From: Gekko japonicus
Lineage: Eukaryota
Direction of reading: 5' to 3'
Assembly: GCF_001447785.1 (NCBI RefSeq)
Contig: NW_015170898.1
Span: forward strand, 1,144,549-1,208,548
Length of the DNA: 64,000 nt
A model generated the notes under the pieces. The model was not told the origin of the DNA. It did no database searches and worked only from the letters and a program-made list of their open reading frames with translations. Made by a program: the position numbers and the translations under genes. Below, piece after piece: positions 38,085 to 52,310 of the stretch. Each line of letters starts with the position of its first letter. The first letter of the stretch is position 1.

Positions 38085-38711
38085 CCGTGCTCACGTGGAT
38101 CTTCTTCATCCAGGGGTACACCACCGGCTCTTTAGGGGGCAAGCGGGGCTGCCGGCCACCGGGGCCGCTTCGCAGTGGCGCTGGGGGGGCTGGACCGGGT
38201 GCTGCGGGACGTGGCCTTGGAGCAGGGGCTGCGCCTGGACAGGGTGGCCTTTCAAGGCGGGAGGAGCGGGCGCTGGAGGAGGAGGGTTGGGGGGCGGCGG
38301 CGGCGGGGAGGTCTCCAGCGGAGGCTGCTCCGGGCCCGCGGTGGCGCCGAGGCTGCCATAGCTGTAAGGCGACTCGGAGTAGTGCGGTGGCTGCGCGGGG
38401 TAGAGAGCCTCGGGAGGAGGAGGAGGCGGCGGAGGAGGAGGTGGCGGCGGCGGCGGCGGCTGGTATCCGGGCTCCCTGCTCGGCCGCGGGTAGTACTGGC
38501 GGAGCGGCGGGCCCGGGTGCTGCTGCTGCGGCTGGGGGTGCTGCTGCTGCGGCTGCGGCTGGGGGTGGTGGTGGTGGTGCTGCTGGTGCTGGTGATGCGG
38601 GTGGTAGCTGCTGCCCCCGCCGCCGTTGCCACCGTGCTGCGAATATTCCTCGCAAGGAGGGAATTTGGGCTCGATGTAGTTGGAGTTTATCAAAAACGAA
38701 CTCATGGTCAT
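38085..38711 (-). CDS. HOXA4: Homeobox A4, coding exon 1 (frameshifted as assembled at ~38134)
   Basis: MTMSSFLINSNYIEPKFPPCEEY in one frame and KEPVVYPWMKKIHVST plus donor ACGG|gtgagt in another. The exon is 627 nt (phase 0) but exon 2 needs phase 1. Confidence 0.93.
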
Positions 38712-50458: not shown

Positions 50459-50968
<510 letters not shown>

Positions 50969-51586
50969 TCAGTCCAGAGGCAACTCAGGCAGAGAGCAGG
51001 CAGAGCTTCCCTCCCCAGACCCTTCAGACATTATGCCTTGCGAGTCAGCACCCCATGCTTTCGAGGGACTGCCTTCCTAGCAGTGCTCTGTTTTCTGGAC
51101 CTAAGTTTCTTGGCTATTTATTAGACCAGGGTACAAAAAGGTAATCACACAGAGAGAGAGAGAGAGCACCTTTCCCAAGCCCAGCTTGAAGGCAGACTTT
51201 GGGCGGAAGTCAAAATCGGTGAGAGGGACTTCCAAATTTGTAGCGACTTCAGAGCCTCCCCCCCCCCAGTTGTCTCTTCTGAAGTTCCTTTCCACTTCCT
51301 TTCCTCCCAGAGAATCTCCCCCAGCATCCCCCCCCCCACTCTTCTCTCTCTCTCTCTGTATTTGCTCAACTTCTTTTTTTGATATAATTAGTAACGCTGT
51401 TTTTCACTGGACCGTCCTCGTCATAAATTACAGACGGCTGACATTCACTATTCAGGTCTCTCTTTCTCTCGCCCCACTATTTCAAGGACACCTCACGGCC
51501 CTGGAGACTTGGAGGAGAGACTGGCTCGCCCTGCCCGGGACAGCACAGCCCTTTGCAGGAGGGACCAGTGGGTCGCCCCGGATCCA

Positions 51587-51587
51587 G

Positions 51588-51619
<32 letters not shown>
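51587..51619. repeat. (CT)n(CA)n microsatellite in HOXA5 intron
   Basis: Directly visible. Confidence 0.9.
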
Positions 51620-51620
<1 letters not shown>

Positions 51621-51668
51621 ACACAGAGACCACACAGCCGCACCAGTCCACCCTCCTGCCCCCCAGCC

Positions 51669-52310
51669 CCAAGGGTAGATCTGGGGCTGTGGAGGCTGCT
51701 GGGCTGTGCTTTGCTGGTTCTGCTGGGGGTTCGCCTGCTCGCTGCCGGCCGGGGGGTCGTCTTCGGTGCCAGGCGACGTGCTGAGCCCGTCTCTGCCTAG
51801 GTGGGTGTTGCCAGAGCTGCTGCTGGTGCTGGTGGTATTGCTGCTGCTGCTGGAGGAAGCGGAGGAAATGCTGCTGCTGCTGGTGGTGGTGGTGGCCGAG
51901 TTGGCGGCGGAGTTCTTCACGCCGCCGTGGTGAGCGTCGCCGCTGACAGGCGAGGTGGCCACGGCGGCGCAGGGCAGAGGGTCAGGCGGAGGCGAGTGAG
52001 TCGACGTGGCCGCGGCCGCCGCCCGGTTGGCGTACCTGGCCTCGGGGGCGGCGGTGGCAACAGTGCTGTTGGAGGGGTAACTGGTGCGCGCCCTCTCGGT
52101 GCCCCCGCCTGCCGCCGCAAAGTGGCCGGAAGCCGAGCGGCCGACGCTGAGATCCATGCCATTGTAGCCGTAGCCGTACCTGCCGGAATGCATGCTGGCG
52201 GACTCCCGGAATTGCTCGCTCACGGCACTTGGATCTCCATAATTATGTAACGGGTAGTCCGGGCCATTTGGGTAGCGACCGCAAAATGAGTTTACAAAAT
52301 AAGAGCTCAT
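51669..52310 (-). CDS. HOXA5: Homeobox A5, coding exon 1 (3' end and donor missing as assembled)
   Basis: [19 protein letters not shown]...[13 protein letters not shown]...QPQIYPW, after which homology stops. The expected MRKLHISH and GT donor are absent. Confidence 0.93.

What the first reader, a model, noticed from the sequence alone, without database searches (positions are those of the whole stretch)
51638..51680. HOXA5 exon 1 lacks MRKLHISH and its splice donor, but a cryptic donor would restore the same linker length
Seen: the ORF reads [15 protein letters not shown]..., with no M after W and no normal donor, while exon 2 is pristine. A phase-1 GT (ACTG|gtgcgg at 51644/51643) would splice in frame to exon 2 and give [16 protein letters not shown]. 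Established: the canonical junction is YPW-MRKLHISH-DNIGG, also 8 residues, and YPWM is the Pbx-docking hexapeptide. Inference: an assembly deletion in GC-rich sequence next to a microsatellite is most likely, and the equal length may be chance. If real, this is a hexapeptide-remodelled or null HOXA5.
Basis: partly seen in the sequence, partly recalled or inferred. Interest (0 to 1): 0.7.

Follow-up and report, generated by a model that had tools for sequence, protein, structure and literature searches.

The report
Assembly deletion fakes broken gecko HOXA5
The draft genome lacks 147 bases that an independent sequencing run of the same gecko has at the end of the first exon of HOXA5, so the odd protein junction is most likely an assembly error in an ordinary gene, and the public predicted protein repeats that likely error.

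Summary
It is most likely not biology. A 3,957-base DNA contig (depth 62) from run X1 of the same organism carries 147 extra letters exactly between 51669 and 51668, right after the W codon. The same contig changes codon 199 from Q to the D found in 14 of 15 squamates. Of 120 listed HOXA5 homologues, 119 have YPWM, including 4 of 4 other geckos; the exception is the predicted model identical to this window. Neighbouring HOXA4 is also frameshifted and short of about 11 residues beside its hexapeptide. Limits: one contig from one run; the 147 letters were not shown; the three RNA runs gave no test; the reads behind the assembly were not examined, so a private allele is not excluded. Verdict: assembly artefact (about 0.93), propagated into XP_015274068.1. 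Low interest, useful only as an annotation correction.

The parts
51669..52310 (-). HOXA5 exon 1, part present in the assembly (M1 to W214, ends ...QPQIYPW)
51668..51669 (-). Breakpoint: 147 letters absent from the assembly lie here. Inferred content: last 25 coding nt of exon 1 (M of YPWM, linker, phase-1 donor) plus about 122 nt of intron start
   Evidence: tables 5 and 8 (X1 contig: record 37-68 and 216-357, 147 letters between); content inferred
51714..51716 (-). Codon 199: CAG (Q) in the assembly, GAC (D) in X1; probable second local assembly error 45 nt from the breakpoint
   Evidence: (table 3)
51642..51668 (-). G-rich intron sequence that reads GWGAGGWT when fused to exon 1, ending in the weak GT (51643-51642) used by the public gene model; would be about intron nt 123-149 in the long form
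51582..51636 (.). CA/TG microsatellite (51601-51636) and adjoining GA run; X1 contigs break here
50710..51668 (-). Remainder of the HOXA5 intron (959 nt in the assembly; about 1,081 nt with the missing part, inferred)
50459..50709 (-). HOXA5 exon 2, intact acceptor, homeodomain and stop; protein identical to 19 of 19 aligned orthologues from NIGG onwards
38133..38711 (-). HOXA4 exon 1 upstream part, out of frame with KEPVVYPWM at about 38133; a second lesion of the same type in the same cluster (supporting evidence, not read-tested)

Best explanation
The draft assembly lacks 147 bases that run X1 of the same organism has directly after the YPW codons of HOXA5, so the GWGAGGWT junction is most likely an assembly deletion in an ordinary HOXA5 whose missing piece would hold the M of YPWM, the linker and the normal donor. 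Shown: position and size of the missing piece, and a second discrepancy 45 nt away that X1 resolves to the conserved residue. Inferred: the piece is 25 coding nt plus about 122 intron nt; the cause is poor short-read coverage of GC- and G-rich sequence next to a microsatellite, closed without a gap; a gene predictor then chose the nearest in-frame GT, which produced the public 305-aa model. The real protein is predicted to dock Pbx through YPWM like other HOXA5 proteins.
For:: X1 contig of 3,957 nt, depth 61.9, joint 51668/51669 with 147 letters between, 32 letters on the short side (tool's bridging limit is 31); 296 laid letters differ at only 2 places, so it is the same or a near-identical organism; those 2 differences turn codon 199 Q into D, the residue of 4 of 4 other geckos and 14 of 15 squamates; 119 of the 120 listed homologues (best 120 of 325 hits) have YPW-M-R-K; the only exception, P0002, is 100% identical to the window and is a single-member cluster with a PREDICTED label; the genome is a draft of 191,500 contigs; flanks are 68% and 78% GC, the intron side 62% G. 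HOXA4 is frameshifted and lacks the roughly 11 residues that 17 of 17 homologues have before KEPVVYPWM. PMC9516821 (passages seen) describes missing sequence, false SNPs, false indels and splice-junction disruption biased to GC-rich 5' exons in older assemblies.
Against: Only one contig of one run spans the site, and its 147 letters were not printed, so M-R-K-L-H-I-S-H and the donor were not seen. X3 and X6 covered only intron 51460-51581 and X21 had 0 reads laid (3 in 100 of the run read), so RNA gave no test. The coding motif of the missing piece is not on any other contig of the assembly: the 3 pattern matches are HOXB5, a duplicate scrap of HOXB5 and a chance hit; this fits lost coverage but equally a true deletion. 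A GT this good at exactly 25 nt arises at only 0.8% of intron positions. The reads behind the assembly were not examined.
Confidence: 0.93

Rival explanations
1. The assembled animal carried a real 147-bp deletion allele (private or segregating, probably heterozygous) that removes the hexapeptide end and donor, giving a null or weakly rescued HOXA5, while X1 carries the normal allele.
For: X1 need not be the assembled animal, and contigs drop rare variants (tool note). The missing coding motif is absent from the rest of the assembly.
Against: It needs a second, independent change of a conserved residue 45 nt away and a frameshift in neighbouring HOXA4 on the same scaffold. Hoxa5 loss disturbs lung development in mice (PMC8618598, passages) and Hox5 loss in motor neurons kills at birth (PMC11408534, passage), so null alleles should be rare.
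Confidence: 0.05
2. The species has a fixed, remodelled HOXA5 ([11 protein letters not shown]) spliced at the 51643 GT with the same linker length, which would weaken or rewire Pbx docking.
For: Linker length is equal (8 residues) and the public model uses this donor; the coincidence has 0.8-4.5% background.
Against: X1 has the long form at full depth, so the short form is not fixed. The public model is a prediction identical to this window, not independent evidence. The donor scores 6 of 9 against 7-8 of 9 for real HOXA donors. 119 of 120 homologues keep the M.
Confidence: 0.01
3. The X1 contig is itself misjoined or comes from a closely related form mislabelled as the same organism.
For: Single contig; short side only 32 letters beside a repeat.
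Against: Depth 61.9; insert lands exactly after the W codon, where orthologues continue with M; 294 of 296 laid letters agree and the 2 others give the conserved residue.
Confidence: 0.01

Closest known systems
Squamate HOXA5 (gecko orthologues P0003 Eublepharis, P0004 Sphaerodactylus, P0005 Paroedura, P0013 Euleptes)
   Same: Same N-terminus, QPQIYPW, identical homeodomain and C-terminus, same place between HOXA6 and HOXA4.
   Different: The assembly text lacks MRKLHISH and has Q for D at 199; X1 has D and a 147-letter insert at the site.
Predicted model XP_015274068.1 / UniRef100_A0ABM1KK31 (Gekko japonicus Hox-A5, P0002)
   Same: 100% identical to the window's exon 1 and uses the same cryptic donor, giving [13 protein letters not shown].
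False gene loss by splice-junction disruption and missing GC-rich 5' exon sequence (PMC9516821, passages seen)
   Same: Missing sequence and a nearby false-looking SNP pair in a GC-rich first exon of a fragmented draft.
   Different: That paper checked the prior raw reads; here only another run was available, so individual variation is not formally excluded.
Engineered Hoxa5 YPWM>AAAA mutant (PMC11408534, passages seen)
   Same: Shows what loss of the motif would do: reduced Pbx1 association, unchanged Scip association.
   Different: A laboratory construct; no evidence here for a natural counterpart.

Membership tests
HOXA5 (Hox paralogue group 5) | Antp-type homeodomain | tested here: met
   PF00046, E 6e-24 for exon 2; identical to 19 of 19 aligned orthologues
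HOXA5 (Hox paralogue group 5) | Position in the HOXA cluster between A6 and A4, same strand | tested here: met
   Six homeoboxes in order on the minus strand; the A4 neighbour confirmed by homologues; A6, A3, A2, A1 named from recalled motifs
HOXA5 (Hox paralogue group 5) | Best homologues are HOXA5 | tested here: met
   All named hits among the 120 listed that carry a gene name are Hox-A5 or HoxA5a
HOXA5 (Hox paralogue group 5) | YPWM hexapeptide, MRKLHISH linker and phase-1 donor | tested here: inconclusive
   Absent from the assembly text; X1 has 147 unprinted letters at exactly that place
Assembly-caused false gene defect | Independent sequence data hold the missing stretch | tested here: met
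   1 of 1 DNA run laid (X1) bridges the site with 147 extra letters; the 3 RNA or RNA-guess runs did not cover it
Assembly-caused false gene defect | GC-rich 5' exon or repeat context, other errors nearby | tested here: met
   68% and 78% GC flanks, microsatellite 32 nt away, codon 199 discrepancy, HOXA4 frameshift
Assembly-caused false gene defect | The assembly's own raw reads do not support the short junction | not testable with these tools
   Those reads were not available
Naturally hexapeptide-remodelled Hox protein | Altered motif fixed in the species' DNA | tested here: not met
   X1 carries the long form
Naturally hexapeptide-remodelled Hox protein | Transcripts spliced at the new donor | tested here: inconclusive
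   No RNA record covered exon 1 or the donor; joints to exon 2 were outside the laid stretch

The most novel reading that the evidence does not exclude
A 147-bp deletion allele of HOXA5 segregates in this gecko and is rescued by a cryptic donor that swaps YPWM-RKLHISH for [11 protein letters not shown] at unchanged linker length, giving a natural, expressed Hox5 protein with weakened Pbx docking.
Probability: 0.02. Interest if true: 0.65.

Novelty: not a real feature. Interest (0 to 1): 0.06.

Why it matters
As biology it most likely does not matter. Practically, the public predicted protein XP_015274068.1 carries the same junction and could mislead comparative work on Hox hexapeptides in squamates; HOXA4 on the same scaffold also looks damaged, so Hox loss or divergence claims from this draft need read support. 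If the short allele were real and expressed it would be a natural test of Pbx-dependent versus Pbx-independent HOXA5 function.

Tried and rejected
Second copy of the region in the genome: none; one full match (the window) and three short 39-53 nt matches to other contigs. Missing piece on an unplaced contig: the degenerate pattern gave 3 matches, HOXB5 (L005), a 208-nt duplicate of HOXB5 (L007, 206 of 208 identical) and a chance hit (L006). RNA test of donor choice: X21 had 0 reads laid, X3 and X6 had one intron contig each; no test either way, and the tool warns that holes prove nothing. Treating the public model as independent support: rejected, it is a single-member predicted record identical to the window. 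N runs near Hox first exons were not used as evidence, since their origin cannot be told. Earlier scan notes: nothing found by place or words. Literature: searches (listings and abstract starts only) showed no paper on a gecko HOXA5 hexapeptide change; subscription papers and supplements were not seen. No structure or complex prediction was run, as the protein in question is probably not real.

Full report
Observation. On the minus strand an ORF starts at 52310 and reads as HOXA5 through QPQIYPW (W = 51671-51669), then [22 protein letters not shown] to a stop. The first phase-1 GT is CTG|gtgcgg at 51644/51643, and four more open phase-1 GTs follow in the TG repeat. The acceptor and exon 2 from 50709 are intact.

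Is the equal linker length more than chance? 41 of 908 positions of this intron have a GT exactly 25 nt on in an open frame (4.5%), and 7 of 908 (0.8%) have one that matches the donor consensus as well as this GT. The figure is lowish but chosen after the fact, with five candidates on offer. The GT scores 6 of 9 against 7-8 of 9 for the real donors of A1, A2, A3, A4 and A6 (consensus recalled).

Relatives. The exon 1 protein found 325 hits, of which the best 120 were listed. It is a single-member cluster and not independent evidence. The other 119 of 120 have M after YPW (97 MRKLHISH, 14 MRKLHINH, 8 other close variants), including four geckos from four other genera.

Direct test. G000 is a draft of 2.49 Gb in 191,500 contigs with one copy of this region. 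Of 24 listed runs, 17 labelled as one organism hold 0.31-0.75 of the stretch's words. I laid four runs from four studies on 51460-51810. X1 (DNA by the tool's guess) has a 3,957-nt contig at depth 61.9 whose letters 37-68 match 51637-51668 and whose letters 216-357 match 51669-51810, with 147 letters between. The insert falls exactly after the W codon. The tool does not print inserts of this size, so its content is inferred: orthologues need 25 coding nt there (eight codons plus one base), which leaves about 122 nt of intron and an intron of about 1,081 nt. On that reading GWGAGGWT is intron sequence and the cryptic GT lies about 148 nt inside the intron. X3 and X6 gave one intron contig each (51460-51581) and X21 gave 0 reads, so the RNA side is untested.

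Second local error. The same X1 contig differs at 51716 and 51714, which turns codon 199 from CAG (Q) to GAC (D). D stands there in 4 of 4 other geckos and 14 of 15 squamates in alignment A1 (the fifteenth has G). So where X1 and the draft disagree, X1 has the conserved state, 45 nt from the breakpoint. The other 294 of 296 laid letters agree.

Context. The 142 nt of exon before the break are 68% GC and the 32 nt after it 78% GC and 62% G, followed by a CA microsatellite at 51601-51636. HOXA4, 13 kb away, starts at 38711 and runs to ...GSPACPL, but KEPVVYPWM is in another frame; 17 of 17 homologues have a stretch such as LPDKSLAGLKG in between. That site was not checked with reads. Two disabled neighbours in one cluster are much easier to explain by assembly than by biology (inference). 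PMC9516821 (passages) reports that missing sequence, false SNPs, false indels and splice-junction disruptions in older assemblies are biased to GC-rich 5' exons.

Against. The evidence is one contig from one run with 32 letters on its short side. The missing coding motif is nowhere else in the draft (only HOXB5, a duplicate scrap of it and a chance hit), which fits lost coverage or a true deletion alike. The reads behind the assembly were not seen, so a private allele remains possible. Mouse data make such an allele costly: lung defects in Hoxa5 nulls (PMC8618598, passages) and death at birth when Hox5 is lost in motor neurons (PMC11408534, passage).

Mechanism and function. Shown: 147 letters missing at 51669/51668 relative to X1. 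Inferred: a low-coverage GC/G-rich stretch beside a microsatellite was closed without a gap; a predictor then took the in-frame GT that best matched the homologous length. The real protein is predicted to be an ordinary HOXA5 with YPWM, the motif whose replacement by AAAA lowers Hoxa5-Pbx1 association (PMC11408534, passages).

Verdict. Not a real feature, about 0.93. Private deletion allele 0.05; fixed remodelling 0.01; faulty X1 contig 0.01. Searches (listings only) showed no paper on this; earlier scan notes held nothing. Interest 0.06, as an annotation correction.

Noticed in passing
window 38133 (minus strand), HOXA4 exon 1 from 38711: Frameshift between ...GSPACPL and KEPVVYPWM; about 11 residues present in 17 of 17 homologues are missing. 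Probably a second assembly deletion; not checked with reads.
   Followed up: partly
window 51714-51716: Codon 199 is Q in the draft and in XP_015274068.1 but D in X1 and in 14 of 15 squamates.
   Followed up: yes
L007 (G000:C183592, 208 nt) and L005 1377-1584: A 208-nt contig duplicates the end of HOXB5 exon 1 at 206 of 208 letters, likely an uncollapsed haplotype scrap. HOXB5 itself has an intact FPWM, linker and donor.
   Followed up: partly
window 51539: X6 has G>A in the intron in one contig of depth 8.6; possibly an allele.
   Followed up: no
window 51816-51895: AGC/ACC triplet repeats encode a Ser/Thr tract in HOXA5 that varies in length among squamates and is much shorter or absent in the bird, mammal and coelacanth rows of A1.
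   Followed up: no
window 8973 (minus strand), HOXA2 start: HOXA2 begins [10 protein letters not shown]; from recall most vertebrates have Y at position 3. Variant or base error, not tested.
   Followed up: no
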